The notes under the pieces were generated by a model that saw only the letters and a list, made by a program, of their open reading frames with translations, was not told the DNA's origin and did not search any database. The position numbers were made by a program, and so were the translations under genes. Positions 17,685 to 54,088 of a stretch of DNA of 64,000 bases are shown piece after piece. The DNA is from Candidatus Bathyarchaeota archaeon (GTDB lineage Archaea; Thermoproteota; Bathyarchaeia; Bathyarchaeales; Bathycorpusculaceae): NCBI GenBank assembly GCA_963707955.1, contig OY970176.1, positions 1,056,001 through 1,120,000 on the forward strand. The letters run 5' to 3'. Position 1 is the stretch's first letter. The number at the start of each line of letters is the position of its first letter.

Positions 17685-17822
17685 TCCAATCACTCTTAAA
17701 ACCAAACTTATTCTGTAATCTTCATATTTAACAATAGCGAGAGCTAACAAATGATCTGCTGATGTTAAGTTGATATATGACTTCATCGGCTCTTCGCGTA
17801 TGCAAGTCGCAAGTTCAATACT

Positions 17823-18863
17823 TCAAGAAATCACGTTCTCAACTTCTTTTTTTACCACTTTCCAATCATAATTCTCAGCTATCTTCCTGTTGATATTATT
17901 CCATTCAGGATGCCTCGATACATTTACGATGTGGTCAGCGATTTCTTCTGGAGTGGGATCGCTTGACAAAAGTTGAGGTTTAGGAATGAATTCAGGTATT
18001 CCGCCAACGTTACACGCTACTACAGGAGTTCCGCACGATATGGATTCTAAAAGAACCACTCCCCAAGCTTCCATTCTGGATGGTAGACAGAAAACAGTCG
18101 AGCGTTGATACAGGCGTATTTTATCCGTAATAGATAGATTTCCACACCATTCAACCCTATTCTTGTACGGTTCGCTCAGTTTATGACACCAAATCCAATA
18201 CTGCCAATTGTCTTGATACTCAATCGGTATGGAGGGATCCTCCCTGTCCACGTTTTCATGTAACCTGGGTCCGCCTCCAACTATCAGCTTCCAGTCTTGT
18301 AAATACTTCATGGCTTCTATAAGCAGGTGAAGCCTCTTTCGTCTGCTCGTGAATGCTAAGTAGGAAATCAAGTTGTTCTCTTTCAATCTAGAATTCGGTC
18401 TGTAGATTGACGTGTCAACACCGTTGTGCACGATTTTTACGCTTTTTTCGTAGAACGGCAACATCCGCGTGATTTCTCTTCTGCTGTAATCGGACACGCA
18501 TAAAGGCTGATCGCAAAACTTCAAGGCTGTAAGGACTTTCCACCCGAACAGACTAAGAATCTTTTCCACGTCTGTGTAATGAAGCCGAGAAATGATTTTC
18601 GCTCCAGAACTTTTGTAGAGTCTTCTGAAATTCCTGTTAACGCTCGCATAATAACGCATGAGATATAGCATTAAGGCTTGAACGCCCTCTTCTTCGTCGC
18701 ACCAGATCAAGTCAAACTCGTTTGCCAACGCTTCAAGCGAATACCGCAACGTACTCGTGCCAAGCTTGCACTGCTTTGCACCAAGCGGCTTGAAAACATA
18801 ATCGTACATATCCTGTGCAAAGCCGTAGCCTCTACCGCCATGGAACAGAATCCTCATCTTCAT
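17823..18863 (-). CDS. Glycosyltransferase family 4
   Basis: VHNGVD, RRKRLHLLIEA, EAWGVVLLESISCGTPVVACNVGGIPE. Confidence 0.88.
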   Translation of the reverse strand: MKMRILFHGGRGYGFAQDMYDYVFKPLGAKQCKLGTSTLRYSLEALANEFDLIWCDEEEGVQALMLYLMRYYASVNRNFRRLYKSSGAKIISRLHYTDVEKILSLFGWKVLTALKFCDQPLCVSDYSRREITRMLPFYEKSVKIVHNGVDTSIYRPNSRLKENNLISYLAFTSRRKRLHLLIEAMKYLQDWKLIVGGGPRLHENVDREDPSIPIEYQDNWQYWIWCHKLSEPYKNRVEWCGNLSITDKIRLYQRSTVFCLPSRMEAWGVVLLESISCGTPVVACNVGGIPEFIPKPQLLSSDPTPEEIADHIVNVSRHPEWNNINRKIAENYDWKVVKKEVENVIS

Positions 18864-18944
18864 TGCCCTGAACCACCAGATGCCTAATTAGCGTGTGCTC
18901 TTTTTACGGATTCCGAAAGAGTTCTTTGAGCGCGCGATGCTAAT

Positions 18945-20105
18945 TCAGTGAGATCGAAGCACCTGCGTGAGCAGTCTTTCAAATACGTCAACCCGCTTTT
19001 CCCAAGAGTTATCTTGTGCAAACCTAATTCTTCTTGCAACCAAGGCTTCATATTCAGGCTTCTTCCGTTCGTCCACAGCCTCTTCTACTTTCCTTATGAA
19101 ATCTTCATCATCTTTTGCAATGTAAACCAGTTCAGAGACGTTGTTGCACACCTCCGGGAGTGAGGTCGAAACGACGGGTTTCCCAGTGGCCAAATACTCA
19201 TACAGCTTTATCGGATTTGAAGCTGATGTTAATCTGTTTATCTTGAAAGGAATCAGGCATACATCTACGCAGGATAGGTAACTTGGAAGAGACTCATACT
19301 TCCTTGCTCCAAGCATTATTATGTTTGGATACTTTTGCAGCTCTTCCAGACCAAAAGCCACTGGACCAATGAGCAGGATGGAGTATTCCGGGTGTGATTG
19401 AGCTAGTTTGCATACCAACTCAACATTTATCCAATCTCTAACAATACCTACGAACCCTACTATTGGATGTTTGAGGGAACTTATTTCCTGAGGCTTGTCG
19501 ACCAACCACGTGGCTCTGTGAAAGTGGTCAAAATCAACTCCATTAGGAACGTAGAAGCAATGACTGTTGATCTTCGAAATTCTCTTACAAAGCACCTTGG
19601 ACACTGCAGTTACGACGGAAGAATCCGCAACTAGATTCTCCTCGGTTCTCAGAGCTTTTGACACGTTGACTCCCGAAAAAAAAGCTGAAAAGTCGTCAGG
19701 GCAATCGTAAACGATTTTTACGTTCATCGAATTCAGACTCGGCAAAAGGAAAGCGTATGAAAAAGAATAGAAAATGGCAACTTCTGGCTTGAAATTGAAA
19801 TATTTGAGACGCGACCGAAGGACCATTGAAGCATATTTTTCTTTGAGAAACTTGAGTCTTCCAGAGAATTCGGGAAGGAATAGGTTTATGACCGATAGAT
19901 TATCCGTGACTTTCTTTCTCAGAAAAACATCCTTTCTTCTGTAGCTCGCTATCAAAGACCGTGGAATCAGATAAATCGGATCCTGAACGTACAAGATGTT
20001 GATGCCACCTCTTTCTGCGAGCCGTGAAGGTATCTGCTGCGGTCTCGACCATAGAAATCCCCAAGGAACACAGGAAAGATAAAGCACGTTCAACAATATC
20101 ACCAT
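18945..20105 (-). CDS. Glycosyltransferase, GT4/TuaH-like
   Basis: WSRPQQI, VYDCPDD, VPNGVD, NPIKLYEYLATGKPVVS. Confidence 0.88.
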   Translation of the reverse strand: MVILLNVLYLSCVPWGFLWSRPQQIPSRLAERGGINILYVQDPIYLIPRSLIASYRRKDVFLRKKVTDNLSVINLFLPEFSGRLKFLKEKYASMVLRSRLKYFNFKPEVAIFYSFSYAFLLPSLNSMNVKIVYDCPDDFSAFFSGVNVSKALRTEENLVADSSVVTAVSKVLCKRISKINSHCFYVPNGVDFDHFHRATWLVDKPQEISSLKHPIVGFVGIVRDWINVELVCKLAQSHPEYSILLIGPVAFGLEELQKYPNIIMLGARKYESLPSYLSCVDVCLIPFKINRLTSASNPIKLYEYLATGKPVVSTSLPEVCNNVSELVYIAKDDEDFIRKVEEAVDERKKPEYEALVARRIRFAQDNSWEKRVDVFERLLTQVLRSH

Positions 20106-20135
20106 TCCTGCTTCCAGTCACTTTTCTCGCGCGCG

Positions 20136-21218
20136 CTATTCACCGATTTCTCTCACCAGTATTTGGACTATCCTTTTCCCTGCCTTGCCATCGCCGAAGG
20201 GGTTTTTCCATCGATTCTTCCTGTTTAGCATGAGCTCCGTTTTCTTGACAATCTCATCAGGATCCGCGCCTGCTAAAACATTCGCTCCAACCTCTACGGT
20301 CTCGGGTCTTTCAGTGTTGTATCTCAAGGTTACGCATGGAACACCCAAGATGCACGTTTCCTCTTGAACACCGCCGGAATCTGTCAGAACGAGTTCTGCG
20401 TTACTTTCAAGGTAGAGGAAACTCAAGTAGTCAAGAGGGCTGATCATTTTGACACCCTTCGCTTCGAGCTTGAATCCCTTGAGTCTTTTCTTAGCTCTCG
20501 GGTGGACCGGATAGATAACGGGAATGGCGAATCGTTCGTTGACCTTTTCCAATCCTTTCAATATGCCTTGAAACCTTTCAACATTGTCGACACTTTCTTG
20601 ACGATGAATAGTAACGAGGAAGTAATTCTTGGGCTTTATCCCAAGCTTGCGGCGTTTGATTCCCTTGTGCGTGGCTATTTCTAGATTCTGGTGGACAGCG
20701 TCCACTATTGTGTTGCCAGTTACGAATATTTCTTCTTTCGGAACCCCTTCAGCCAGCAATGTGTTCTTTGAGTTTTTGGTGGGCGCAAACAGCAGGTCTG
20801 AGCAGTGGTCTGTCAAGATTCTGTTTATTTCTTCGGGCATATGCCTGTCATAGCTTCTTAAGCCCGCTTCGACATGGCCGACTTTGATGCCGAGTTTTGC
20901 TGCGGCTAGGGCACCTGCAAGAACGGTGTTGGTGTCACCTTCGACTAAAACAACATGGGGTTTTTCTTCGAGGAGAACCTTCTCTATCCCGATAAGCATC
21001 TTTCCTGTCTGTTCTGCGTGTGTTCCAGAGCCAACGTCAAGGTTATGCTTGGCTTCGGGTAGCCCGAGCTGTTCGAAAAAGATTTTGTCCATGTTATATG
21101 AATAGTGTTGCCCCGTGTGTACGATGAAGAAGTCCAAATCAAGTCGGATGCATTGTCGGATAATCGGGGAGAACTTGATGATTTCAGGTCTGGTTCCGAG
21201 TATGATTGCGATCTTCAT
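20136..21218 (-). CDS. wecB: UDP-N-acetylglucosamine 2-epimerase (non-hydrolysing)
   Basis: GTRPEIIK, HTGQHY, GDTNT, HVEAGLRS, TDSGGVQEE, TERPE, PFGDG. Confidence 0.96.
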   Translation of the reverse strand: MKIAIILGTRPEIIKFSPIIRQCIRLDLDFFIVHTGQHYSYNMDKIFFEQLGLPEAKHNLDVGSGTHAEQTGKMLIGIEKVLLEEKPHVVLVEGDTNTVLAGALAAAKLGIKVGHVEAGLRSYDRHMPEEINRILTDHCSDLLFAPTKNSKNTLLAEGVPKEEIFVTGNTIVDAVHQNLEIATHKGIKRRKLGIKPKNYFLVTIHRQESVDNVERFQGILKGLEKVNERFAIPVIYPVHPRAKKRLKGFKLEAKGVKMISPLDYLSFLYLESNAELVLTDSGGVQEETCILGVPCVTLRYNTERPETVEVGANVLAGADPDEIVKKTELMLNRKNRWKNPFGDGKAGKRIVQILVREIGE

Positions 21219-21221
21219 TCT

Positions 21222-21233
21222 TAGCGCGCGCTA
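21222..21233. repeat. Type copy of the dispersed intergenic palindrome TAGCGCGCGCTA
   Basis: Perfect 12-bp palindrome. Related copies at 18929, 20128, 22378, 23193, 24219, 26536, 27432, 29369, 52433 and 53793. Confidence 0.75.
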
Positions 21234-21506
21234 CTATCCTGTCCCTTTGTATTTAAGACTTCTCAGAAAACAGATGAACGGCACTACAAGCGAAACTGCC
21301 AACTGTAAGGTAAAGATTAGGCGATGCTTCTGCGAGCAGTGATGGAATTCCTAGTCATCTGACCCTTATGTGCACATGCTTTTTCGCATTTCCGACAGCT
21401 AGTTTGTTAAGGTTTCAGGTTTTGAAATATGTCAAATGGCGCAGTATTCTAGGTCAAGAACTAGGCATATTATAGCTTACGATACAATATAAACAAGGTG
21501 GCGAAT

Positions 21507-21650
21507 ATGGAAATAGTGAATTGGAAACATCTCAAAAAACGAGACGAACAACTAACTCTGTCAATAATAGAAAACGCAAACAACGCCATGAAGAACGCGT
21601 ACTACGCCAGCCAATGGGCCACGATACACCAAGGAAACGATTCCTACTGA
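21507..21650 (+). CDS. Small hypothetical protein (47 aa), absent from the ORF track
   Basis: MEIVNWKHLKKRDEQLTLSIIENANNAMKNAYYASQWATIHQGNDSY*. An SD-like AAGGTGG lies 5 nt before the ATG. Confidence 0.5.
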   Translation: MEIVNWKHLKKRDEQLTLSIIENANNAMKNAYYASQWATIHQGNDSY

Positions 21651-21807
21651 AAAGAACGTGCACGGCCTAATAGTCTCCTGAATCAAAACTATGCTAGGTT
21701 TCATGGTATTCCAGTCTTGCAGTTTTGTCTATGATGGTTTCTGCCTCTATATTCTTGGTTCATAACGTTTTTCTCTATACTAGGCGTCAACTTGTCTAGA
21801 TGAGAGC

Positions 21808-22332
21808 ATGAATCTGAAGACCTTTCTTCAAGGCCCTTGGTTTCAAAGAAGCGTTCTTCTCGTATGGCTTGTCAGCTCTGCTCTTGTCATGTTTTCCCAG
21901 AAAACCATTGACTCGATTGTTAACGTAACGCTGTATGGTTATGGACTGCAGTTCAGCAATAAATGGGCAATACCCTATTGGACATATGCACGGTTGCTCT
22001 ATGCTACTCAATTTGTCTGCATCGCCCTAAGCGCGGTAGCCTTGACCTCAGGCTTTCTAAAAAAGGACAATAGCGATAAACACGTTCCGAAACCCGAAGA
22101 GAGAATCGATAAAAAAGCCGCTGCACGAGAAGAGACAAAGGGACGCACTATAGTTATCTCTTGCTCCTCTTGCAAAAGAGTCGTCAGCAAACCGTTAGTC
22201 ATGCTGGATTTCAGCGGCGGAAAAGCCAAGCTCGTAAACGTCTGCCCCTACTGCAACACTGTTCTAGGCAAAGCTGAGAAACAGAATGATACTGAAACAA
22301 TCGTAGACCCAGGGAAGGAAGTCGTTCAATAG
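21808..22332 (+). CDS. Membrane protein (2 TM) with C-terminal zinc ribbon
   Basis: Two hydrophobic segments, then CSSC...CPYC. Confidence 0.75.
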   Translation: MNLKTFLQGPWFQRSVLLVWLVSSALVMFSQKTIDSIVNVTLYGYGLQFSNKWAIPYWTYARLLYATQFVCIALSAVALTSGFLKKDNSDKHVPKPEERIDKKAAAREETKGRTIVISCSSCKRVVSKPLVMLDFSGGKAKLVNVCPYCNTVLGKAEKQNDTETIVDPGKEVVQ

Positions 22333-22501
22333 AAGCGTCCGCTTAGACGATGGCAAGTGCTAGGTCAGTGTTAGGAGCCGGCGCGCTGGTGACTAACCGA
22401 AAAGGCAAGCATTATGTATTGAAAATAGGAATGTGAATAAACTATTGAAAATCAGAGTCTGGGTGAACCCAGACTAGTTTTGAGAATGGGGTCTGACGGA
22501 T

Positions 22502-23167
22502 TTGAACCAGAGAACTAGAAACAACATGATCGTGTTTGCTCCCCACCCTGACGACGAGACATTGGCATGCGGCGGAACTATCGTTAAGAAGCTCGAAGAA
22601 GGATTTGACGTCTACGTTACTGTTATGACAGATGGGCGCCATTCTCATGACGTCACACTTGGCCTCGCGCAACCTTCGCCCGAAACGATAGCGGAAATAC
22701 GTGCGACAGAGTTGAAGGAAGCCACCCGTGTCCTGGGAGTCAATCCTAGTAATCTGATTCTCCTATGGTTTGAAGATGGCAAGCTAAGGGAGCACATGAA
22801 TGAAGCAAGAGAGAGGACTGTTCGGATTCTTCACGAGGTACGTCCAGTCGAGATATACATGCCTTACAGAGACGACGCCAATGACGATCACCGGACAACC
22901 TACGAAATCGTTACTGGCAGTGTCAGGGAAGCCGATCTGCTCCCTAAAATGTACGAATACTCCGCATGGAATGGAAAGATCCCTCGCCCAGAATTGAAAG
23001 TGTTTGTGATAGGTATTCATGGGGAATTGGGAAGAAAAATGGAAGCCATCTCCAAATACAAGAGTCAGATCTCAACGTGTTTTCCAAAACAGGAAAAAGC
23101 AGTCCTAAGCGAAGAGTTCGTGAACATGTTCCGTTCTGAAACGGAAACATTCTACACAAAAGAATAA
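22502..23167 (+). CDS. PIG-L/LmbE family N-deacetylase
   Basis: FAPHPDDETLACGG, MTDG, DANDDH, YKSQ. Confidence 0.92.
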   Translation: MNQRTRNNMIVFAPHPDDETLACGGTIVKKLEEGFDVYVTVMTDGRHSHDVTLGLAQPSPETIAEIRATELKEATRVLGVNPSNLILLWFEDGKLREHMNEARERTVRILHEVRPVEIYMPYRDDANDDHRTTYEIVTGSVREADLLPKMYEYSAWNGKIPRPELKVFVIGIHGELGRKMEAISKYKSQISTCFPKQEKAVLSEEFVNMFRSETETFYTKE

Positions 23168-23403
23168 CCAAGACCCATAACGTGCCTATTTTGCACGCGC
23201 GCCGTTCTGGAGTTTCCTTCGTTGCTCATTCCGCCCCCGTCTATGATAATGACGTTATTAGCAGTGGTGGTCCGCAGAAGAAAACGCGTGTTCTACCGTC
23301 TGCATAAGAGAAACTGGAAGCGCGAGACTCACGACATAGAAAGTGCCTCTGCACGTCTTTGGCACAGAATGCCTTAAGAATGATGACCCTGCTGGATATG
23401 TGC

Positions 23404-24036
23404 ATGACAAAGCTGTATTTTCTCGGCGGGGAAGACGTGGCAGAAAGAGACTCTAAAGAAATCAATGAAAAAGCGTTTATGGAAGCTGGTGGAACACCTG
23501 TTGTTCTGATTTTCAACTGGACAGCAGAATCAGCTGACAAAATGGGAAAATACGGGAAGATAATGGCTGATTACTTTGAAGACATTGGTGCAAGCGCCGT
23601 CGAATTTGCAGAATGTTCAGATTCGCTGGAAGAAATTGCTCAGAAGGCTAAGCGTTCAGACTTGATATACCTGCCCGGCGGCGTCACGAGAATTCTGCTT
23701 GAACGTATACTAGATGCAAAAGTCGACAGCTTATTGCGAGAATACGAGAAAATCATCGTTGGAAACAGTGCAGGTGCCCTAGCCCTTGGCAGAGACTGCA
23801 TACTCACCAGAGGTAAACGCAACAAGAGAACCGTGATAATTCCAGGCCTCGGTCTAGTGGACTTCAGTGTTAAAGTTCACTACAAAGCTTCAAGGGATCG
23901 CGAATTGAAACAGCTTTCATACGAAAGAAAAATATACGCCATCCCCGAGGGCTGTGCACTCATTTATGACAGCGGCTCTGTATCCGGCATTGGGGACATC
24001 TACCTGTTTCAAAACGGAGAGAAGACCAAGCAGTGA
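23404..24036 (+). CDS. Peptidase E / S51 family (class I glutamine amidotransferase-like)
   Basis: LYFLGG, IYLPGG, nucleophile elbow GNSAGA, GLGLVDFSVKVHY. Probable start is ATG 23404. Confidence 0.85.
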   Translation: MTKLYFLGGEDVAERDSKEINEKAFMEAGGTPVVLIFNWTAESADKMGKYGKIMADYFEDIGASAVEFAECSDSLEEIAQKAKRSDLIYLPGGVTRILLERILDAKVDSLLREYEKIIVGNSAGALALGRDCILTRGKRNKRTVIIPGLGLVDFSVKVHYKASRDRELKQLSYERKIYAIPEGCALIYDSGSVSGIGDIYLFQNGEKTKQ

Positions 24037-24346
24037 ATGGAAACATTGCTCAGAGTCCAAACTTCTCTGAACTTGTTGAAGCCTACTATTTCTTCGACGG
24101 TTTTCCTTTTTCTGGTCGTTAGGCAACGGCGAAAATCCTCTTTTTTGCTGCTGGATGCAATATCGCTCAGAGCAAAAACTTGCTTACCAACAATACGATA
24201 GAGACTATGATGTAAGTCTAGCGCGCGCCGAACTCGGCGTACGCCTTAGGTTCGAAATTCCGAAGTTTTATTGAAGGCAAAGTTTCTTGAGAAATGAATG
24301 CGAAATCGTTAAAACCCCGTGTTACAAATTCAACTGAGGGGTTCTC

Positions 24347-25531
24347 ATGATTAACAATCGAAGATACCTGTTCACTTCGGAGTCTGTGGCAGAAGGTCAT
24401 CCGGACAAGGTCGCTGACCAGATATCAGACGCTGTCCTTGATGCTGTCTTCAGCAAGGATCCTAAAGCAAGAGTTGACTGTGAAACACTTGTGATGCAAG
24501 GAAACGTAATAGTCACTGGTCAGATCACGACCTCTTGCTACGTGGACATTCCCTACATTACTAGAAAAACTTTAAAGGAAATAGGCTTGGATAACGCCAA
24601 AGATGGAATGGACTGGGAGACCTGCGGCGTGTTGGTTTCGATAACCGAGCAGTCCCCAGATATTGCCATGGGAGTCAACGAGTCCGAGGCTCATGAACAG
24701 GGAGCTGGAGACCAAGGAATGGTGTTCGGCTACGCCACAAACGAGACGAAGGAATTTATGCCTTTACCAATCATGTTTGCGCACAACCTTGTGAGAAGAC
24801 TTTCCGAGTGCAGAAAGAACAAAGTTTTGCCATACCTGAGGCCAGACGGCAAGTCGCAGGTCACAGTTGAATATGTGAATGGAAAACCAAAAAGAGTGGA
24901 GGCTGTTGTAATAGCCGCTCAGCACGTTGAGAGCGTTGACAGAGAGAAGATGAAGCAAGACGTGATAAGTCAAGTCATAAAGAAGGTCATACCCTCAGAC
25001 ATGCTGGATAAGGAAACAAAATACTTTGTCAATGAGACGGGAAGGTTCGTTGTCGGAGGAACTCTAGCAGATTCGGGTTTAACTGGAAGAAAAATAATAG
25101 TCGACACGTACGGAGGCGTCGGCAGTCACGGCGGAGGATGCTTTTCCGGAAAAGACCCCTCAAAAGTCGATAGGTCTGGCTGTTACATGGCAAGGTACAT
25201 CGCAAAAAACGTTGTGGCAGCAGGTTTGGCAGACCAATGCGAGGTCCAGATATCTTATGCCATAGGCGTGGCACAACCAGTTTCTGTGATGGTAAACACG
25301 TTTGGCACGGGCAAGATACCTGACGAAAGAATCCTTGAATTGGTCAAAACACATTTCGACATGAGACCCAAAGCAATAATAAATCATCTGAATTTGCTCA
25401 GACCAATATACAGAAAAACGGCCGTTTTTGGCCACTTTGGCAGAGACGACCCAGACTTCACATGGGAAAAAACCGACAAAGCAGAGATCCTCAAGAAGCA
25501 CGCCGGATTACCACGACCAGCTCAGACCTAG
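24347..25531 (+). CDS. metK: S-adenosylmethionine synthetase, bacterial/eukaryotic type
   Basis: [57 protein letters not shown]. Confidence 0.97.
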
Positions 25532-25553
25532 GACAAATAATAGACAATCGCTA

Positions 25554-25571
25554 GTGGTGACCGGTGGGTAT
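25554..25571 (-). repeat. Degenerate copy of the tRNA-Ala 3' end (att-like remnant)
   Basis: GTGGTG-ACCGGTGGGTAT vs tRNA-Ala GTGGTGGACCGGTGGGGAT (29388-29406), same orientation. Confidence 0.5.
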
Positions 25572-25707
25572 CCGCAAAGGATTTTTATGCATTTGGGATT
25601 TGCGGGAAATACGGAAGCACCACAAAGACGGAACCTCCAAATCCTTAAACGGATTGACTGACCATTATCTAACTGTAGTAAGAGGTAGGAACTAAGGATT
25701 GGTTTTC

Positions 25708-26445
25708 ATGAATCTTAAGGATAGGCTCGTAATTGTCACTGGCGCTTCTTCAGGAATAGGTCTGGCGACAGCGAGACTTCTTGCTAAACAGGGCGCGAAA
25801 CTGGCTCTCGTCTCCCGTTCAAAAGAGAAGTTGGAGCAGCTCTCAATTGAACTTCCAGGCTCGTTGGCTGTTCCCGCCGACATGACGAGAATCTATGATA
25901 TCGAGAGCATGATTAATCGGACGATGGAACACTTCGGGAGAATCGACGTTCTAATCAACTGTGCCGGTCAAGGATATGACGCTCCAGTTGAGAAGACTAA
26001 CGTTGACACTTTCCATCACATCTTCGACTTAGACGTGGTCGGCCCGCTCGTTGCCATGAAACAGGTCATCCCAATCATGCGGAAGCAGGGCGGAGGAACG
26101 ATCATTAACATCAGCTCCGGCACCGCGCTGATGTATCTGCCGAACAACGGGGCATATTCAGCCCTGAAACGAGCGCTTGCCAACATCACCTTGACCGCAC
26201 GAGAAGAATTGAAGAAGGATAACATTGTTGTCAGTGTCGTGTACCCATACATTACACTCACCGATTTCGAGAAAAACACCATTAAAGATGCCGTTCCTGA
26301 AGACGGAGAGCAAGGAGGCTCCATTCCGTTTCAAGCCGACACCGCGGAGCATGTGGCCCAGAAGATACTGGAAGGAATAGAAAGCGGAGAAGCAGAAATC
26401 TTCGCCCACGATTGGATGAAGAAAAGAGCTGATGCAAACCCCTAA
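25708..26445 (+). CDS. Short-chain dehydrogenase/reductase
   Basis: TGASSGIG, INCAG, NISS, YSALK. Confidence 0.93.
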   Translation: MNLKDRLVIVTGASSGIGLATARLLAKQGAKLALVSRSKEKLEQLSIELPGSLAVPADMTRIYDIESMINRTMEHFGRIDVLINCAGQGYDAPVEKTNVDTFHHIFDLDVVGPLVAMKQVIPIMRKQGGGTIINISSGTALMYLPNNGAYSALKRALANITLTAREELKKDNIVVSVVYPYITLTDFEKNTIKDAVPEDGEQGGSIPFQADTAEHVAQKILEGIESGEAEIFAHDWMKKRADANP

Positions 26446-26486
26446 CCTCGCTGCTTCGACGTTTGTAGGGATTCTGGGAAACCCCA

Positions 26487-26505
26487 GCGGGGGGGGGATT
26501 TGAAC
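26487..26505 (-). repeat. tRNA T-loop/3'-half-like remnant
   Basis: The minus strand reads GTTCAAAT followed by a C run and GC, with no tRNA 5' half. Confidence 0.35.
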
Positions 26506-26605
26506 AAGCGTTCACCAGTAAAATGCTGCAGCTTCAGCGCGCGCTAGACTTATATGCGAAGATTCATCTAGAGGAAAATCACAGCGCAAGTGGTTAAGTT
26601 GGGAG

Positions 26606-27334
26606 ATGATAGTTATGCCTGACGTCTTGAAAATTATTCAGCAGAGACGGTCAAGCAGGGTTCCTTTTAATCCGAATCATCCGGTTTCCAACAAGAACCT
26701 GAGGCAGATCCTCGAGGCGGCGCGTTGGGCGCCGACGGCTCACAACATGCAGAACTTCGAAATTCTTGTCGTTGATGACAAGGAGGTTCTGGAGAAGATT
26801 GGAAAAATCAAGTCTCGTGTGTCGGAAGCATTCATCCGTGAGAACTACCAGCAGCTGTCATTCTCGGAAGAGGAGTTGCTTCAGAAGAAGGTCGGGATCC
26901 TCGGCACCAATTTTCCGCCGGATTGGAGGGATCCTGCCAAGCTGGACAAGGTTGTCCGTAAGAGTGCGCCTTCGCCCCTGAACCAGCGCATCAGAGGTAG
27001 TCCGCTGCTGCTGATAGTGATTTATGATTCTAGGAAGAGAGCGCCTGCCTCCGAGGGGGATGTTTTGGGTTTCATTAGCTTGGGTTGTGTAATGGAGAAC
27101 ATGTGGCTTGTGGCCCAGTTGTTTGGGATAAGCGTTCACATATTGAGTGTGTTCAGCGGAGATGTCGTGGAAAAAGAGGTGAAGCGGATTCTCAACATTC
27201 CTGAATCCATGAAGATTGCTTTTGCCATGCGTCTGGGATACCCCGTCTCTAGGCCGGCTAAACACCTGAGAGTGCGCCGTGACGTGGAAATGCTTACGCA
27301 TCATAATGGGTTTGGGAACAAGGGCTTCAGCTGA
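26606..27334 (+). CDS. Nitroreductase family protein
   Basis: RRSSR, LEAARWAPTAHNMQ, ENMWLVA, RLGYP. Confidence 0.9.
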   Translation: MIVMPDVLKIIQQRRSSRVPFNPNHPVSNKNLRQILEAARWAPTAHNMQNFEILVVDDKEVLEKIGKIKSRVSEAFIRENYQQLSFSEEELLQKKVGILGTNFPPDWRDPAKLDKVVRKSAPSPLNQRIRGSPLLLIVIYDSRKRAPASEGDVLGFISLGCVMENMWLVAQLFGISVHILSVFSGDVVEKEVKRILNIPESMKIAFAMRLGYPVSRPAKHLRVRRDVEMLTHHNGFGNKGFS

Positions 27335-27515
27335 GAAAACCTTGTCTTGTTTTCACGATTAGCTGGTTTGCGGAGAGGAAGTTTGAGGCGTTGTTGGAAT
27401 GGGAGTGAACTTGCAAGTTTTAGGTATGCAATAGCGCGCGCTGGAAAGGTTGCGCTGGTAACCAGTCTTCTTGTTCAAGTTTGCTGTAAGGTGTCATCTG
27501 TGCCATGCATGTTGA

Positions 27516-27989
27516 CTATTGCGTGGTTTTTGCCTTTTCCAGGTGCATTTCTTCGAGTTTTCTGTATTTTTTCGCGCGCTCTTCGAAAAGATTCGATATG
27601 CTGGTTCTGTACGCTCTGAACTCTCGGCATATGTCAGATTCTGATTCGTCATCCATTTCCCTGGCCATGGACCCGTGACTTTTGGCCTTTTGAGCATCGA
27701 CATCGCTGATCTTTCGTTCACTGAACGCTATTGCTGCATAATGCTTTTGACGTCTGGCCACGGTTTCAACATCCTTTGCAAGCCTAGCGTACAGCCTTGC
27801 TTTCTGTCTCTCAAGTTCCTTTCTTTCCTTCGGTGTCATCCTAAGGTTAGCCTCCGTGAAGCCCAATCGGAACAAGGCCTCATGGATACCGTGTTTTGCA
27901 CCGGTTGTGTCTCCTTTCTCTAAACACATCAGTGCATAATGCAGTGCGCCCAAGACTGGTTGCGGGTCTAGGGTCAAATCTTTCGTCAT
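27516..27989 (-). CDS. Hypothetical helical protein
   Basis: 157-aa ORF with ATG preceded by GGTGA and an upstream TTTAAA/TTAATA promoter-like tract. No family recognised. Confidence 0.65.
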   Translation of the reverse strand: MTKDLTLDPQPVLGALHYALMCLEKGDTTGAKHGIHEALFRLGFTEANLRMTPKERKELERQKARLYARLAKDVETVARRQKHYAAIAFSERKISDVDAQKAKSHGSMAREMDDESESDICREFRAYRTSISNLFEERAKKYRKLEEMHLEKAKTTQ

Positions 27990-28083
27990 TTTTTCACCGT
28001 ATCTTCAGATTTAAGCTATATTAAGTCTGAAACATTTAAATTTTTCAAGGAGCACTAAGACTTTTTCCACGTATCATTCAACG

Positions 28084-29307
28084 CTAGAAGTAGGGCTGAT
28101 TTTTCGCAAGGCTCTCTGTGAGGTCCGAGTAGGTGTCGATGATGACTTCTCTCAAATCCGTTCTCTGGCTTTTTTTCTCCACTCTTTCCCGCAGAATTTC
28201 AGAGAGGTTTCCACATTCTATCCTTCTCTGGATTATAGGGAGATATTTTTTTTCGTCTGCTGTGGCGTTCCCCAGAGCGACGTTGTAATAATATTCGCAG
28301 ACTCGACGTGCAGTCTCTCCGTGTGGATGATGAACGCTGGCCCTGAGTCCATTCATCATGATCGCGTTGAGATCCTGTACTAGGACTGTGTGAGGGAGAA
28401 ACTCTGGGTCCTGATTCATTAGTCCCCTCAGTACCGCTCTGATGAAACAGCTCAATGCGACGTCTGATTTGATGCATTCTTGCTCATCCATTATTCGAAT
28501 TTCGATGGCTCTTCTGTCGAACCTGAATATCACTCCTCGGCTGTTCACCCATTCCTTGTTCAGGACAAGCTTGTCAGCACCTGCGTTGGATAGATCGTCT
28601 GAGTACTTGCCTATAATGTTCGTTTTATACTGGCTGAATGAGGACGTGTATTCTGGAATCACGTCGCCGGTTACTGATGGGATTTCTTTTTGGTTTTGCA
28701 TGTAGAAGTACAGTCTGTTGTCGACTCCGTCTCCGAGCCTGCCCTCGTAGATTGGTGAAGAAGCGCTAATTGCGGACAAGTAAGGGCATATGTTTGCAAG
28801 CGTGTTGTTAAGCAGGATTGCGCTTTCTTCGTTTGAGTATGAGAGGTTGAGGTGGAAGCTCTGAATGTTGAGCCATCCGTGCCGTCTCAGATTGAAGATT
28901 TTGCCGTAAGCCTCGTAGATTTGTCTGTGGCGGTGGGGCCAAATTCCCGTTTCGTCGAGTTCTAGTAGTGGGTGCATGCCCGTTCCAAGAAGATGCGCGT
29001 GAAACTTACGTTGCAGGAAATCCTGAATCGTCAAGATAGTTTCCTGCATCGTCTCCTCAAACTCCACCGGCGTCTTGAACGGAGCGTTAGGCTTGAATTC
29101 CATGACGTGCAGCTGAAGCTCTTTGCCAAAGGTAAAGCTTGGCTGTCTTACGAAGTTGACAACTCGGCCATGGAAAGCCTTTATGATTTTGTCTACGATG
29201 GGCAATGCCTCAAGCGCGTCATTCACAATTGAAAACTCGTGCTCTGGACCTAGGACTTCCAAGGTCTTGTACGTGAAGGCTCCACTCTTGCTGAAGCTGT
29301 TCTCCAT
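28084..29307 (-). CDS. Glutamate--cysteine ligase family 2 (GCS2/YbdK-like carboxylate-amine ligase)
   Basis: LGPEHEF, KELQLHVMEFK, GTGMHP, IQSFHLNL, SASSP, AIEIRIMDEQE. The start is uncertain (29307 or nearby). Confidence 0.85.
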   Translation of the reverse strand: MENSFSKSGAFTYKTLEVLGPEHEFSIVNDALEALPIVDKIIKAFHGRVVNFVRQPSFTFGKELQLHVMEFKPNAPFKTPVEFEETMQETILTIQDFLQRKFHAHLLGTGMHPLLELDETGIWPHRHRQIYEAYGKIFNLRRHGWLNIQSFHLNLSYSNEESAILLNNTLANICPYLSAISASSPIYEGRLGDGVDNRLYFYMQNQKEIPSVTGDVIPEYTSSFSQYKTNIIGKYSDDLSNAGADKLVLNKEWVNSRGVIFRFDRRAIEIRIMDEQECIKSDVALSCFIRAVLRGLMNQDPEFLPHTVLVQDLNAIMMNGLRASVHHPHGETARRVCEYYYNVALGNATADEKKYLPIIQRRIECGNLSEILRERVEKKSQRTDLREVIIDTYSDLTESLAKNQPYF

Positions 29308-29388
29308 GATTGAATATAAAGCTACAATCAAACACATTGTGCAAGTACGCAGGGTTACAAGGGAAAAGGCGCGCGCGCATAAAAATGG

Positions 29389-29465
29389 TGGTGGACCGGT
29401 GGGGATTTGAACCCCAGACCTCCTGAGTGCAAGTCAGGCGTTCATACCAGCTGAACTACCGGCCC
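29389..29465 (-). tRNA. tRNA-Ala(UGC), intronless, with encoded CCA
   Basis: GGGCCGG-TA-GTTCAGCTGGTATGAAC-G-CCTGA-CTTGCAC-TCAGG-AGGTC-TGGGGTTCAAATCCCCA-CCGGTCC-A-CCA. It has the G3:U70 alanine identity pair. Confidence 0.97.
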
Positions 29466-29634: not shown

Positions 29635-29641
29635 GTTTGGT

Positions 29642-29782
29642 CTAGAATCTTCTTCTCGAAGTTCTTCGCTTAGACCAGCAATCTCGGCAGTAAACAGGTC
29701 TGCTTGGGTCGGGTGTGAAGGGAACTTCGCACTCCTTTCCACAATCAGCACAAACTGCCTTATGCATCTCTTTCTCTGCCAT
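29642..29782 (-). CDS. CxxC-x17-CxxC zinc-ribbon small protein (46 aa), absent from the ORF track
   Basis: MAEKEMHKAVCADCGKECEVPFTPDPSRPVYCRDCWSKRRTSRRRF*. SD is AAGGAG, with TATA-like TTTTATAAG at ~29857-29865. Confidence 0.92.
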   Translation of the reverse strand: MAEKEMHKAVCADCGKECEVPFTPDPSRPVYCRDCWSKRRTSRRRF

Positions 29783-30047
29783 ATACTATTTCAACTCCTT
29801 TGATTGGTTTGTGCAGAAATTGCTTCTTGCACGTCGCACCTATGAAATAGAAGCAACTTATAAAAGTTGCCATGAAAAAACAAGGCCTAACGGTGACTTC
29901 TTCCAGAATGTTAGACCATGTTTCTCAATGAACGCAGTTCACTGAGAGGCTAGCTGGGGCAGACTTCTTGCCGTATCTGGCGATCTTTAGCATCACGTTT
30001 TTAAGCACAGCCTTGCTACCTTAAGATTCTTTCAAACGGTGACCCGA

Positions 30048-52216: not shown

Positions 52217-52621
52217 ATTTTAATGCATAGCGCACATGTTTGTTCCTAAATTCTTAGATTCCGCTCAAGAGGAAGGCATGACGTTTTCCGATGGTCGATG
52301 TTACTGCCACGGTTCGAGCTGGGTCTCTCGTGCTCACACCCTCCCCCCCGGGTATCCTATATGATCCAAATATGATTGAAGAGAGCAGAATGAGCAGCAC
52401 AAGCCACTTTCCAAAAAACTTCAGGAACACGCTAGCGCGCACTGCGCACGTAGAACATAATTCGCAATCGTGCACCATGCTTCATCGTTTTTCCATGAAA
52501 AGTTGTTCAGTTAACGTGAGAATCCTCGTCTAAGACCCCATCAATGTTGAGGATATTGCTAAATCTGAATGAAGATGTCTCCCGGAAAACTCCCCTTTTT
52601 TCTGTCAGCCCATTGTGTTTG

Positions 52622-52655
52622 TTGAGAGGCGGTTAAGTACTTAGCCCTCTTAAGT
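52622..52655. promoter_or_regulatory. Downstream ACTTA-N7-TAAGT box array overlapping the ATPase stop codon
   Basis: TTGAG-AGGCGGT-TAAGT-ACTTA-GCCCTCT-TAAGT. Confidence 0.6.
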
Positions 52656-53766: not shown

Positions 53767-54088
53767 CGAGTCTTAAATCTATCGGCAAACAGAACGCGCG
53801 CTCTACACTCGTTGCAGGCGTTTGAGTTTCGTGTGTGCTAAACATAACATGCCCACAATAATGTGGATAGTACCGGTGTGACCTCAGCATAAGTGGAGAT
53901 GTCTCCTGCAACTCGTTTGAGCTTTTTGATATCACAGATGGAGTGCACTTATACCGAAAACGGAAATAGCATCGCAAAGATTAAGGTGTAATGTCCTATA
54001 ATAAGTCATAAATCGTAATATAGGTTAAATCTTTTAAGGATGTACGGTATAATAGAAAGCAGAAAAATGGGATAAGCAGGTAATAATT

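What the first reader, a model, noticed from the sequence alone, without database searches (positions are those of the whole stretch)
18889..29378. A (T)AGCGCGCGCT(A) palindrome punctuates most gene junctions of the accessory region
Seen: AGCGCGCGA 18929; CGCGCGCGCTA 20128 (overlaps the wecB stop); TAGCGCGCGCTA 21222 (between the wecB TATA and start); CCGGCGCGCTGG 22378; GCACGCGCGCC 23193; TAGCGCGCGCC 24219; AGCGCGCGCTA 26536 (next to a TATA); TAGCGCGCGCT 27432; GCGCGCGCGC 29369 (just 3' of tRNA-Ala). There are also TAGCGCGCACT 52433 and AACGCGCGCT 53793 either side of the ATPase gene. Transition variants that keep purine/pyrimidine alternation occur too (AGCGTGTGCT 18890, AGCGTGTGCA 1240, CGTGTGTGCTA 53830). 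All six loci with a full GCGCGCGC that I found by eye are at spacers, although spacers are AT-rich and a small part of the window. The motif sits at both 5' and 3' gene ends, which a plain operator would not explain. Alternative inferences: (a) a recombination or insertion site delimiting single-gene cassettes next to tRNA-Ala; (b) a binding site for a chromatin or SMC-loading protein; (c) Z-DNA-prone supercoil sinks between transcription units, since (CG)n is the known best Z-former.
Basis: partly seen in the sequence, partly recalled or inferred. Interest (0 to 1): 0.78.

Follow-up and report, generated by a model that had tools for sequence, protein, structure and literature searches.

The report
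GC-palindrome scars at DNA rejoining sites
A short palindrome, A(GC)4T, that dots the spacers between genes of this uncultured archaeon seems to be a scar left where broken DNA was rejoined, so it marks where genes were lost, gained or moved.

Summary
All 14 listed sites are present. GCGCGCGC occurs 7 times in the window against 0.64 expected. Genome-wide it is the most over-represented 8-mer (13.6-fold): 419 loci, 356 of them intergenic. It is confined to one Bathyarchaeia genus: all 10 congeners have it, and 20 genomes of other genera have 0-1 copy.

It is not a promoter, terminator or RNA element. It has no fixed position, no flanking context and roughly neutral conservation. Instead it sits at homology breakpoints. 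In a comparison with a congener (G001), 103 of 371 block ends lie within 3 bp of a (GC)≥3 run. For G000 alone, 64 of 285 intergenic ends do, against 2.3% expected.

In 27 of 59 large indels the short allele carries a (GC)3-5 run in place of 150-4100 bp. Three deletions could be polarised from truncated genes, two of them independent hits on the same locus. In each the GC run was added de novo.

The genus encodes a PrimPol-Ku-ligase end-joining operon. It also carries an IS5-family IS with MITEs, every copy of which is bracketed by GCGCGC.

Best reading: the word is a junction scar of non-homologous joining, later reused as an IS target. The enzyme that writes it is not identified.

The parts
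18929..18938 (.). AGCGCGCGAT, a 7-nt alternating GC run in the spacer between two glycosyltransferase genes (17823-18863 and 18945-20105, both on the minus strand)
20128..20138 (.). CGCGCGCGCTA. Its TA/G supplies the TAG stop of the UDP-GlcNAc 2-epimerase gene (20136-21218, minus strand).
   Evidence: Genome-wide, 14 loci share their first G with a stop codon.
21222..21233 (.). Full 12-bp palindrome TAGCGCGCGCTA, 4 nt upstream of the epimerase start codon
22378..22389 (.). (GC)3 variant in the spacer before the PIG-L deacetylase gene. High-identity homology with G001 and G007 starts about 140 bp further on, at 22526.
23193..23203 (.). GCACGCGCGCC, a short run 26 nt after the stop of the PIG-L gene
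24219..24229 (.). TAGCGCGCGCC upstream of the SAM synthetase gene. In G001 the seven letters AGCGCGC are replaced by 1011 bp carrying a UbiA-family gene. G007 has the motif and no insert.
26536..26546 (.). AGCGCGCGCTA between the short-chain dehydrogenase and nitroreductase genes. G001 has GCGCAGGC at the aligned place.
27432..27442 (.). TAGCGCGCGCT in a convergent spacer. One contig of a sister sample (X3) matches up to 27432 and then runs on into unlike sequence.
27358..29385 (.). 2-kb segment (ORF of 157 aa plus a GCS2 glutamate-cysteine ligase gene). G001 has only GCGCGCGC in its place, abutting a partial tRNA-Ala copy. The GCS2 gene sits in other contexts in G004, G007 and G009. Homology there ends exactly at GC runs, but at different offsets from the gene.
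29369..29378 (.). (GC)5 run 10 nt from the 3' end of tRNA-Ala (29389-29465, minus strand). It forms the right boundary of the GCS2 segment.
52228..52440 (.). Copy of the ~200-bp MITE family.
53793..53802 (.). AACGCGCGCT, a (GC)3 variant upstream of the archaeal ATPase gene (52650-53732, minus strand)

Best explanation
The word (T)A-(GC)3-5-T(A), most often A(GC)4T, is a junction scar. It is a short stretch of alternating G and C written into the DNA where two ends are joined without homology. This happens after loss of a gene-sized piece, at the borders of a piece inserted or moved elsewhere, and sometimes at a break resealed without loss. Scars inside genes are mostly purged, so they pile up in spacers, above all in the fast-turnover accessory parts of the genome. 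There they 'punctuate' gene junctions, as in window 18.9-29.4 kb. They then decay about neutrally. SHOWN: the tie to breakpoints; de novo origin at three polarised deletion junctions; restriction to one genus; and the absence of the features of a regulatory site. INFERRED: the joining is done by the genus's Ku / LigD-type PrimPol / ligase-phosphoesterase operon. Both 3' ends would receive the same self-complementary tail (A, then GC repeats), and the tails would then anneal. That would explain the palindrome, the fixed G-first phase, the statistically independent A and T flanks, and the hard length limit of 10-11 nt. Some further genus-specific factor must exist, because a neighbouring genus has the same operon and no motif. 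Secondarily, an IS5-family insertion sequence and its MITEs insert into the centre of these scars with a 4-bp duplication. That is why every copy is bracketed by TA-GCGCGC.
For: (1) Breakpoints. Of 371 internal ends of 195 homology blocks between G000 and 1.2065 Mb of congener G001, 71 lie within 3 bp of a (GC)≥3 run in G000, 47 in G001 and 103 in either genome. Among the 285 ends that are intergenic in G000, 64 do, against 2.3% for random intergenic positions (binomial p 1e-42). (2) Indels. In 27 of 59 large indels the short allele has a (GC)3-5 run exactly at the junction. By my reading, about 20 of these 27 long alleles have no GC run, TA or common termini at either end. (3) Polarity. G001:C12 has an intact ChrB_C gene (Pfam profile 1-132 of 132) followed by an MFS gene, and G007 has the same arrangement in the same context. 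G000 keeps only codons 1-56 and the last 17 codons, joined by the 8 new letters ACGCGCGC. G010 has a different deletion of the same region, joined by TGCGCGC. A DUF996 gene that spans a junction in G001 is cut in G000 next to (GC)5. (4) Moved DNA. The GCS2 gene sits in four different contexts in four species. Homology ends at GC runs placed at different offsets from the gene. Of 108 ends of 27 intragenomic duplicate pairs, 24 lie within 12 bp of a run. (5) Location. Of 178 (GC)≥4 loci in the compared territory, 25 lie in aligned DNA, 41 at block ends and 112 in lineage-specific DNA, although 53% of the spacer bases align. (6) Discrete word. In spacers, maximal run lengths 6/7/8/9/10/11 number 253/125/230/109/45/2, and none is longer. 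Of the 8-nt runs, 200 of 230 start with G. For exact (GC)4 (n=231), A precedes in 72% and T follows in 70%; A..T together occur 114 times against 116 expected if the flanks are independent. (7) Machinery. G000 957178-960233 encodes LigD_Prim-Pol, Ku and a ligase with a 3'-phosphoesterase domain. Ku was found in G000 and 7 of 10 congeners, against 1 of 20 genomes of other genera. (8) Not transposon ends. Only 9 of the 371 ends lie within 25 bp of an IS/MITE terminus.
Against: G016, from another genus, has an orthologous PrimPol-Ku-ligase operon (PrimPol 68% identical), yet AGCGCGCGCT occurs once against once for the control. End joining by this operon alone therefore does not write the word. 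No known NHEJ polymerase is reported to add a stereotyped alternating GC tail; that statement rests on my recall, and two searches turned up nothing. The PrimPol reading frame looks interrupted in G000 and G004. In 23 of the 27 motif-bearing indels both junctions lie outside called genes. Random breaks would not give that without strong selection, whereas insertion of whole genes or transposon-based events would. Only three events could be polarised. The J1 pattern (G000 and G007 have the motif, G001 has a gene) fits insertion into a pre-existing motif equally well. Every one of 33 paired IS/MITE copies carries GC-run flanks, so a transposon origin for part of the scars cannot be dismissed. 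The gene calls are my own crude ones, and only about half of one relative was compared.
Confidence: 0.5

Rival explanations
1. Transposon remains. The runs are what is left when the IS5-family IS or its MITEs leave: the two GCGCGC brackets (target duplication or element termini) are rejoined through 2-6 nt of microhomology, giving (GC)3-5. Deletions and translocations with a run at the junction come from pairs of elements acting as composite transposons, or from transposon-mediated adjacent deletions followed by excision. Ku-LigD reseals the donor site, as in eukaryotes.
For: All 33 paired IS/MITE copies in G000 plus 1.2 Mb of G001 are bracketed by GC runs. Seventeen of the 33 have 6+6 nt, and TA lies outside the run on the left in 17 of 33 and on the right in 14 of 33, the same flank bias as the solo word. 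One MITE in G001 has TA-GCGCGCGC-TA as its empty site in G000. The site of a G000 MITE (532698-532907) has no GC run in G001. The observed length limit of 10-11 nt equals 6+6 minus at least 2. The terminal-repeat pattern and the motif are both confined to the genus. In G001 a MITE abuts a missing 1-kb stretch that is present in G000. This reading also explains why NHEJ alone (G016) gives no motif.
Against: Only 9 of 371 homology ends lie near an IS/MITE terminus, against 103 at solo runs. Motif-rich genomes have almost no such termini: G004 has 39 copies of the 10-mer and 0 termini, G009 has 82 and 1, G008 has 56 and 2. G010, with an independent fresh deletion scar, has 0, though it is only 63% complete. 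Each polarised deletion would need 3-4 transposon events. Clean motif-versus-nothing differences are few (9 of 53 sites show gaps, 3 of them ≥6 nt) compared with 27 large indels, the reverse of what insertion/excision cycles predict. No other element family recurs next to GC runs.
Confidence: 0.22
2. Pre-existing recognition site. The palindrome is recognised and cut by a nuclease, recombinase or the IS5 transposase. It acts as a hotspot where DNA pieces are captured or exchanged. The short alleles with the motif are then ancestral.
For: Twenty-three of 27 motif-bearing indels have both junctions in spacers. At window 24221 both G000 and G007 have the motif while G001 has a gene. A 585-bp pair that is 100% identical is bounded by GC runs at all four ends. 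The G004 GCS2 piece has runs at both ends. Part of one G001-specific segment is 95% identical to G002, a genome otherwise about 75% identical, which suggests recent transfer. NHEJ capture of foreign DNA at breaks has been shown in Sinorhizobium (PMC6379672; abstract and passages read).
Against: Three polarised cases show the run arising at a deletion in a lineage whose relatives have intact genes and no run there. Most long alleles keep no half-site. The cassette borders of GCS2 differ between species. The model offers no source of new sites. No C5 DNA methyltransferase was found (PF00145).
Confidence: 0.13
3. Functional DNA element. The palindrome is a binding site for a global regulator or chromatin/SMC protein, or a Z-DNA-prone supercoil sink between transcription units. 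Its association with rearrangements is a by-product of fragility.
For: The intergenic bias is strong (356 of 419 loci). Density is highest in convergent spacers, at 1.22 per kb. (CG)n is the classic Z-DNA former (recalled).
Against: There is no preferred distance to starts beyond avoidance of the last 40 nt, and no flanking T-tract or other asymmetric context. Conservation is about neutral, with 22 of 53 sites identical at roughly 93% overall identity. Only 25 of 178 loci lie in conserved DNA. Sister genera, including a family member with similar genes, do without the word. No Rfam family overlaps any site.
Confidence: 0.08
4. HIP1-like palindrome. The word is driven up in frequency by a methylation-dependent repair bias, as proposed for GCGATCGC in cyanobacteria.
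For: It is a hyper-abundant GC-rich 8-bp palindrome restricted to one clade. Single-transition variants are enriched more (about 3.5-fold) than transversions (1.5-2.4-fold).
Against: HIP1 is abundant within genes as well (recalled; not checked in the papers I opened — the term 'intergenic' had 0 occurrences in PMC4390886). Here 85% of loci are intergenic. No PF00145 methyltransferase was found in G000. Repair bias does not explain whole 7-16-nt insertions at deletion junctions.
Confidence: 0.03

Closest known systems
Filler DNA and DNA capture at non-homologous end-joining junctions (bacterial Ku-LigD; archaeal Ku/Pol/PE/Lig as in Methanocella, recalled)
   Same: Junctions lack homology and carry a few extra letters that neither partner templates. 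Deletions and captured DNA pieces both occur. Ku, a LigD-type PrimPol and a ligase with phosphoesterase domain are encoded together. Capture of heterologous DNA by NHEJ has been shown experimentally in Sinorhizobium (PMC6379672, passages read).
   Different: As far as I recall, known fillers are short, variable or copied from nearby DNA. A stereotyped palindromic word that becomes the most over-represented 8-mer of a genome is not described in what I searched. The same operon in G016 leaves no such word.
Excision footprints and target-site duplications of cut-and-paste transposons (Tc1/mariner, hAT in eukaryotes; the IS5 family with its 4-bp palindromic target, recalled)
   Same: Both are short palindromic remnants flanked by TA. 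An IS5-family IS (DUF772 + DDE_Tnp_1, 1068 bp) and MITEs are bracketed by the same letters. One filled/empty pair is consistent with a 4-bp duplication.
   Different: Solo words outnumber element copies by more than ten to one and persist in genomes without the element. They also occur at deletion junctions inside genes, where no element is seen. Footprints are not a described feature of prokaryotic IS excision (recalled).
HIP1 (GCGATCGC) of cyanobacteria
   Same: Both are clade-restricted, hyper-abundant 8-bp GC-rich palindromes of debated function (PMC4390886 abstract and passages; PMC5861425 abstract in the listing).
   Different: This word is 85% intergenic, and no C5 methyltransferase was found. 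Conservation is about neutral and the word is tied to structural breakpoints.
REP/BIME elements and the IS that target them (IS1397, IS621; recalled)
   Same: Both are intergenic palindromes used as specific insertion sites by an IS.
   Different: REPs are 20-40-nt imperfect hairpins with a conserved context. Here nothing is conserved beyond 10-12 bp. A RAYT transposase was not looked for.
Integron attC / gene-cassette sites
   Different: Occupied alleles mostly lack the site at their ends. The borders of the same gene differ between species. The site is created at deletions.

Membership tests
NHEJ junction filler (Ku-LigD type) | Ku, polymerase and ligase of the pathway are encoded in the genome | tested here: met
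   LigD_Prim-Pol 7.8e-73, Ku 2.3e-40, and a ligase with LigD_N phosphoesterase domain, adjacent at G000 957178-960233. The PrimPol match is split near its C-terminus in G000.
NHEJ junction filler (Ku-LigD type) | Extra letters at a junction that are absent from the intact ancestral allele and not templated by the flanks | tested here: met
   ACGCGCGC at the chrB_C/MFS deletion in G000, TGCGCGC at the independent deletion in G010, and (GC)5 at the DUF996 deletion. This rests on 3 polarised cases only.
NHEJ junction filler (Ku-LigD type) | Presence of the pathway predicts presence of the scar across genomes | tested here: inconclusive
   Ku was found in G000 and 7 of 10 congeners, against 1 of 20 other genera. 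That one genome (G016) has the operon and no motif. The three congeners without a Ku hit are 65-89% complete and have the lowest motif density.
NHEJ junction filler (Ku-LigD type) | The enzymes produce the filler in a rejoining assay | not testable with these tools
   This needs biochemistry or a heterologous plasmid-repair assay.
Transposon footprint / target duplication (IS5 family + MITE) | An element with terminal inverted repeats and a DDE transposase is present | tested here: met
   A 1068-bp IS at G000 389086-390153 has DUF772 + DDE_Tnp_1 in two frames. About 25 MITE hits occur in G000.
Transposon footprint / target duplication (IS5 family + MITE) | Solo words occur where, and only where, an element has been | tested here: not met
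   Only 9 of 371 homology ends lie near a terminus, against 103 near solo runs. G004, G009, G008 and G010 have many words and 0-2 termini. A lost ancestral element cannot be excluded.
HIP1-like highly iterated palindrome | A cognate DNA methyltransferase is present | tested here: not met
   PF00145 gives 0 matches in G000, while the same search rings in 9 of 14 control genomes. N4/N6 methyltransferase families were not searched.
HIP1-like highly iterated palindrome | Abundant in coding and non-coding DNA alike | tested here: not met
   356 intergenic, 49 coding and 14 edge loci.
REP/BIME | A 20-40-nt imperfect palindrome with conserved context that can form a hairpin | tested here: not met
   Base frequencies are at background beyond positions -2/+2.
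Integron-like cassette site | The site is present at both ends of each occupied cassette, with fixed cassette borders | tested here: not met
   About 20 of 27 long alleles have no run at either end (my reading). The GCS2 borders differ in three species. No integrase was looked for.
Operator / promoter element | Fixed distance and orientation relative to the TATA box or start codon | tested here: not met
   The distance distribution is broad, and the word occurs in convergent spacers at the highest density. There is no oriented context.
Intrinsic terminator | A T-tract follows in the direction of transcription | tested here: not met
   T reaches only about 30-35% downstream of 102 sites oriented by the upstream gene.

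The most novel reading that the evidence does not exclude
This archaeal genus has a so far undescribed 'sticky-tail' way of healing broken DNA. An enzyme (the LigD-type PrimPol with a partner, or an unknown nucleotidyl transferase or templated adder) extends each 3' end with A followed by alternating GC. Any two ends become mutually complementary and can be ligated. Every illegitimate junction is thereby stamped with a readable palindromic barcode. The barcodes record the history of gene loss, capture and translocation. They also provide safe landing pads that an IS5-family element has learned to target.
Probability: 0.3. Interest if true: 0.9.

Novelty: new variant of a known kind. Interest (0 to 1): 0.78.

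Why it matters
If the reading is right, one short word lets us read directly from a genome where DNA was broken and rejoined without homology. Gene loss, horizontal capture and gene shuffling in an uncultured archaeal lineage would then become countable events with visible borders. It would give field evidence that end joining, which is rare in archaea, shapes accessory genomes. It also points to an unexplained biochemical activity, a stereotyped self-complementary GC addition, that can be tested with three small proteins. A practical consequence is that these sites should not be annotated as operators or terminators.

Tried and rejected
1. MITE or long repeat carrying the motif: rejected. No context is conserved beyond 10-12 bp.
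2. Microsatellite slippage: rejected. The run-length distribution peaks at 8, has a fixed phase, and has no run longer than 11.
3. tRNA-linked site: rejected. Only 2 of 26 tRNAs have the motif nearby.
4. Paired copies forming RNA stems: no preferred spacing.
5. Terminator or promoter element: no oriented context.
6. Known RNA family: the only Rfam hit in the window is tRNA-Ala.
7. Synteny around SAM synthetase in 14 relatives from genome contigs: no shared neighbours, so orthologous spacers could not be compared there.
8. C5 methyltransferase and family-X polymerase: not found in G000. PolX was not found in any of the 11 genomes of the genus.
9. Restriction-cut-plus-fill-in and recombination between two pre-existing GCGC or GC-run sites: considered and rejected for the clean cases, because long alleles lack GCGC or TA at the junctions (my reading).
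10. Sequencing runs: all four laid runs are kept as contigs, not reads, so rare excision or rearrangement variants could not be seen. The contigs cover the window's motif sites without change. There was one loose end at 27432 in X3 and one 18-nt skip at 27338-27357. Parts without cover are not evidence.
11. Phylogenetic polarisation of other indels with G007 and G010: ambiguous, because the branching order of G000, G001 and G007 is not resolved and alleles may move by homologous recombination.
13. Literature searches: none of the listed papers describes an intergenic GCGCGCGC word in archaea or a GC-run end-joining scar. I saw only listings, plus passages of PMC4390886 and PMC6379672.

Full report
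WHAT THE WINDOW IS. The window is G000:C1:1056001-1120000 of a single-contig genome of 2,346,764 bp with 47.9% GC. The nearest relatives of its SAM synthetase in public genomes are MAGs labelled Candidatus Bathyarchaeia/Bathyarchaeota, at 86-90% amino-acid identity.

All 14 quoted sites carry the quoted letters. GCGCGCGC occurs 7 times at 6 loci against 0.64 expected, and no one of 100 shuffles reaches 7. Some listed sites are shorter variants, and site 52433 is the flank of a MITE copy.

THE WORD IS GENOME-WIDE.
- There are 464 overlapping matches in 419 loci.
- Under an order-3 Markov model it is the most over-represented of all 8-mers: 928 on both strands against 68 expected.
- With my own crude gene caller (2297 genes, 81.6% coding), 356 loci are intergenic, 49 coding and 14 on a gene edge. 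Spacers make up 18.4% of the genome.
- Base frequencies return to background beyond two positions on either side. The consensus is (T)A-GCGCGCGC-T(A), so it is not part of a longer repeat.
- It is a discrete word and not a microsatellite. In spacers, maximal alternating runs of 6/7/8/9/10/11 nt number 253/125/230/109/45/2, and none is longer. Of the 8-nt runs, 200 of 230 start with G.
- Single-mismatch variants are only 1.5-4.3-fold enriched, against 19-fold for the perfect core in spacers. Internal transitions (about 3.5-fold) exceed transversions (1.5-2.4-fold).

IT IS CONFINED TO ONE GENUS. AGCGCGCGCT occurs 114 times in G000 and 7-92 times in all 10 genomes of the same genus, where the reversed control gives 0-4. 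In 20 genomes of 19 other genera of the same family and order it occurs 0-1 time.

IT DOES NOT BEHAVE LIKE A REGULATORY OR RNA ELEMENT.
- It occurs in convergent (1.22 per kb), divergent (0.81) and tandem (0.75) spacers.
- It has no preferred distance to start codons beyond avoiding the last 40 nt.
- It tends to abut gene ends. Fourteen loci share their first G with a TAG stop.
- No T-tract or other oriented context flanks it.
- No Rfam family covers it.
- There is no preferred spacing between copies, and only 2 of 26 ARAGORN tRNAs have the motif nearby.
- Within DNA that aligns with congener G001 at about 93% identity, 53 (GC)≥4 sites could be compared. Twenty-two are identical, 17 differ by 1-2 substitutions, 5 by more, and 9 by gaps. 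The gaps include clean 8-nt presence/absence. That is about what neutral drift would give.

IT SITS AT BREAKPOINTS: THE WINDOW.
- Homology with G001 and G007 (91-94% identity) comes in blocks.
- At window 24221, G001 has 1011 bp with a UbiA-family gene exactly in place of the letters AGCGCGC. G007 has the motif.
- Window 27358-29385 (two genes) is represented in G001 by GCGCGCGC alone, abutting a partial tRNA-Ala copy.
- The GCS2 gene lies in different contexts in G004, G007 and G009. Homology with the window stops exactly at GC runs: at both ends in G004, at the right end in G007, and at a (GC)3 at the left end in G009. These runs lie at different offsets from the gene.
- The glycosyltransferase/epimerase part (17.8-22.5 kb) has no high-identity counterpart in the congeners.

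IT SITS AT BREAKPOINTS: GENOME SCALE. I fetched 1,206,500 bp of G001, rebuilt the contig pieces, and aligned them to G000. This gave 195 non-redundant blocks of ≥300 bp at ≥85% identity, 752,771 bp in all.
- Of 371 internal block ends, 71 lie within 3 bp of a (GC)≥3 run in G000, 47 in G001, and 103 in either. The expectation is 2.3% for random spacer positions and 0.6% for random positions.
- Among the 285 ends that are intergenic in G000, 64 are at a run (binomial p 1e-42).
- Of 178 (GC)≥4 loci of G000 in the compared territory, 25 lie in aligned DNA, 41 at block ends and 112 in unaligned, lineage-specific DNA. Yet 53% of the spacer bases there align.
- Inside G000 itself, 24 of 108 ends of 27 duplicated segments (≥350 bp) lie within 12 bp of a run.

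THE WORD REPLACES DNA. Between adjacent collinear blocks there are 59 large indels, defined as one gap ≤40 bp and the other >100 bp.
- In 27 of them (9 of 24 with G000 long, 18 of 35 with G001 long) the short allele carries a (GC)3-5 run at the junction. The other genome has 150-4100 bp there.
- Reading those alignments, the letters private to the short allele are 7-22 nt long: a GC core with or without A, T or TA. In about 20 of the 27, the long allele has no GC run, no GCGC, no TA and no common termini at its ends.
- Many of the other 32 indels show direct repeats of 13-15 nt, typical of other mobile elements.

DIRECTION OF THE EVENTS. In 23 of the 27, both junctions lie outside called genes. 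In the rest, genes give the polarity.
- Case 1. G001:C12 has an intact ChrB_C gene (Pfam profile 1-132 of 132) followed by an MFS transporter gene, and G007 has the same arrangement. G000 keeps codons 1-56, already frameshifted, and the last 17 codons of the transporter. They are joined by eight letters, ACGCGCGC, that exist in neither flank of G001.
- Case 2. G010 has another deletion of the same region with different end points, joined by TGCGCGC. In its 63%-complete assembly G010 shows none of the MITE termini described below.
- Case 3. A DUF996 gene whose domain spans the junction in G001 is cut in G000 right beside (GC)5.
So in three events the GC run was written de novo at a deletion junction. 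Across all block ends, 6 motif-bearing ends fall inside a gene that is intact in the other genome.

A TRANSPOSON THAT GOES WITH IT.
- G000 389086-390153 is a 1068-bp IS encoding DUF772 + DDE_Tnp_1 (IS5 family) in two frames.
- About 25 hits of a ~200-bp MITE and a few of a second MITE share its terminal repeat.
- All 33 paired copies found in G000 plus the G001 sample are bracketed by GC runs. Seventeen have 6+6 nt. TA lies outside the run on the left in 17 and on the right in 14.
- One G001 MITE has TA-GCGCGCGC-TA as its empty site in G000, consistent with insertion in the centre and a 4-bp duplication.
- Another filled site has no GC run at all in G001.
- The terminal-repeat pattern is genus-restricted, but its counts do not follow motif abundance: G000 34, G001 69, G003 23, G007 9, G006 2, G008 2, G009 1, and G002, G004, G005 and G010 0.
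- Only 9 of 371 block ends are near such a terminus.
- No other repeat family recurs next to GC runs.

END-JOINING GENES.
- G000 957178-960233 encodes a LigD-type PrimPol, Ku, and a ligase fused to a 3'-phosphoesterase domain.
- Ku was found in G000 and 7 of 10 congeners. The three misses are 65-89% complete and have the lowest motif densities. One of them, G002, has a PrimPol hit.
- Ku was found in 1 of 20 genomes of other genera. That one, G016, has the same operon (PrimPol 68% identical) but no motif.
- The PrimPol match is split in G000 and G004.
- No C5 methyltransferase was found in G000, and no family-X polymerase in any of the 11 genomes of the genus.

INTERPRETATION.
- What is shown: the word marks places where DNA was joined without homology, and at least some copies are created by that joining.
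- The shape of the word fits two like tails, added to the two 3' ends and then annealed. It is a palindrome with a fixed G-first phase. For exact (GC)4 (n=231), A precedes in 72% and T follows in 70%, and the two are statistically independent (114 A..T observed, 116 expected). The length is capped at 10-11 nt.
- The end-joining operon is the obvious candidate for the joining, but it cannot be the whole story, because G016 has it without the motif.
- The main rival is that the runs are remains of the IS5/MITE brackets resealed by end joining. This accounts for the brackets, the length cap and the G016 exception. It fits poorly with the scarcity of elements at breakpoints, with the motif-rich element-free genomes, and with the multi-step histories it requires.
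- I therefore put about 0.8 on 'junction-associated scar', about 0.5 on the full statement with end-joining as the writer, and 0.22 on the transposon-remains version.

LIMITS.
- The gene calls are my own, and start codons are over-extended.
- Only half of one relative was compared.
- BLAST block ends are fuzzy by a few bases.
- All genomes are MAGs, and G000 has 5.8% estimated contamination.
- Independent contigs from four sediment samples do cover the window's sites unchanged. Run X1 may be the source sample, and the data are contigs only, so rare variants are invisible.
- The counts read by eye (about 20 of 27) were not scripted.
- The literature statements rest on five full-text searches and on passages of two papers. 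Everything else about NHEJ enzymes, IS5 targets and eukaryotic footprints is recalled.

Noticed in passing
window 1254-17786 (minus strand): A single open reading frame of 5510 codons, very large for a 2.35-Mb archaeal genome. Two internal stretches match each other at about 86% (G000 1061141-1061855 against 1062782-1063496), so it is repetitive.
   Followed up: no
window 29637-29843: A ~200-bp stretch just beyond tRNA-Ala recurs at 72-85% identity in several places of G000 and of every congener searched. It is a further dispersed repeat family, unrelated to the GC-bracketed MITEs.
   Followed up: no
L093 (G001:C6) 12178-20391, opposite window 27358-29389: G001 carries about 8 kb between a 45-nt partial copy of tRNA-Ala and the full tRNA-Ala gene. 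This is the classic signature of an integrated element in a tRNA gene.
   Followed up: partly
window 24347-25531: The SAM synthetase is of the bacterial three-domain type. Outside Bathyarchaeia, the listed hits at about 64% identity are Desulfofundulus and Desulfovirgula, with a Woesearchaeota MAG at 63%. This hints at an old transfer from bacteria.
   Followed up: no
G000 2096997-2108976 (outside the window): Two adjacent copies of a 5996-bp stretch are 100% identical. This is either a tandem duplication or an assembly artefact.
   Followed up: no
G000 957247-957985 (L165 7247-7985): The LigD-type PrimPol match is split into profile positions 1-214 and 215-246 in different frames in G000, and into two pieces in G004. 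This is either a frameshift or a long-read homopolymer error, and it matters for the proposed role.
   Followed up: partly
G000 960235-961005 (L165 10235-11005): A DUF72 gene follows the ligase gene with almost no gap. It may belong to the end-joining operon.
   Followed up: no
L103 (G001:C5) 4618-5734: This stretch is 95% identical in G002, a genome otherwise about 75% identical to G001, and 93% identical in G009, in other contexts. It looks like a recently exchanged mobile gene.
   Followed up: no
window 26446-26605: A run of nine G lies in the spacer before the nitroreductase gene, next to the motif at 26536. G/C-rich 8-mers such as GGGGGAGG are also over-represented genome-wide.
   Followed up: no
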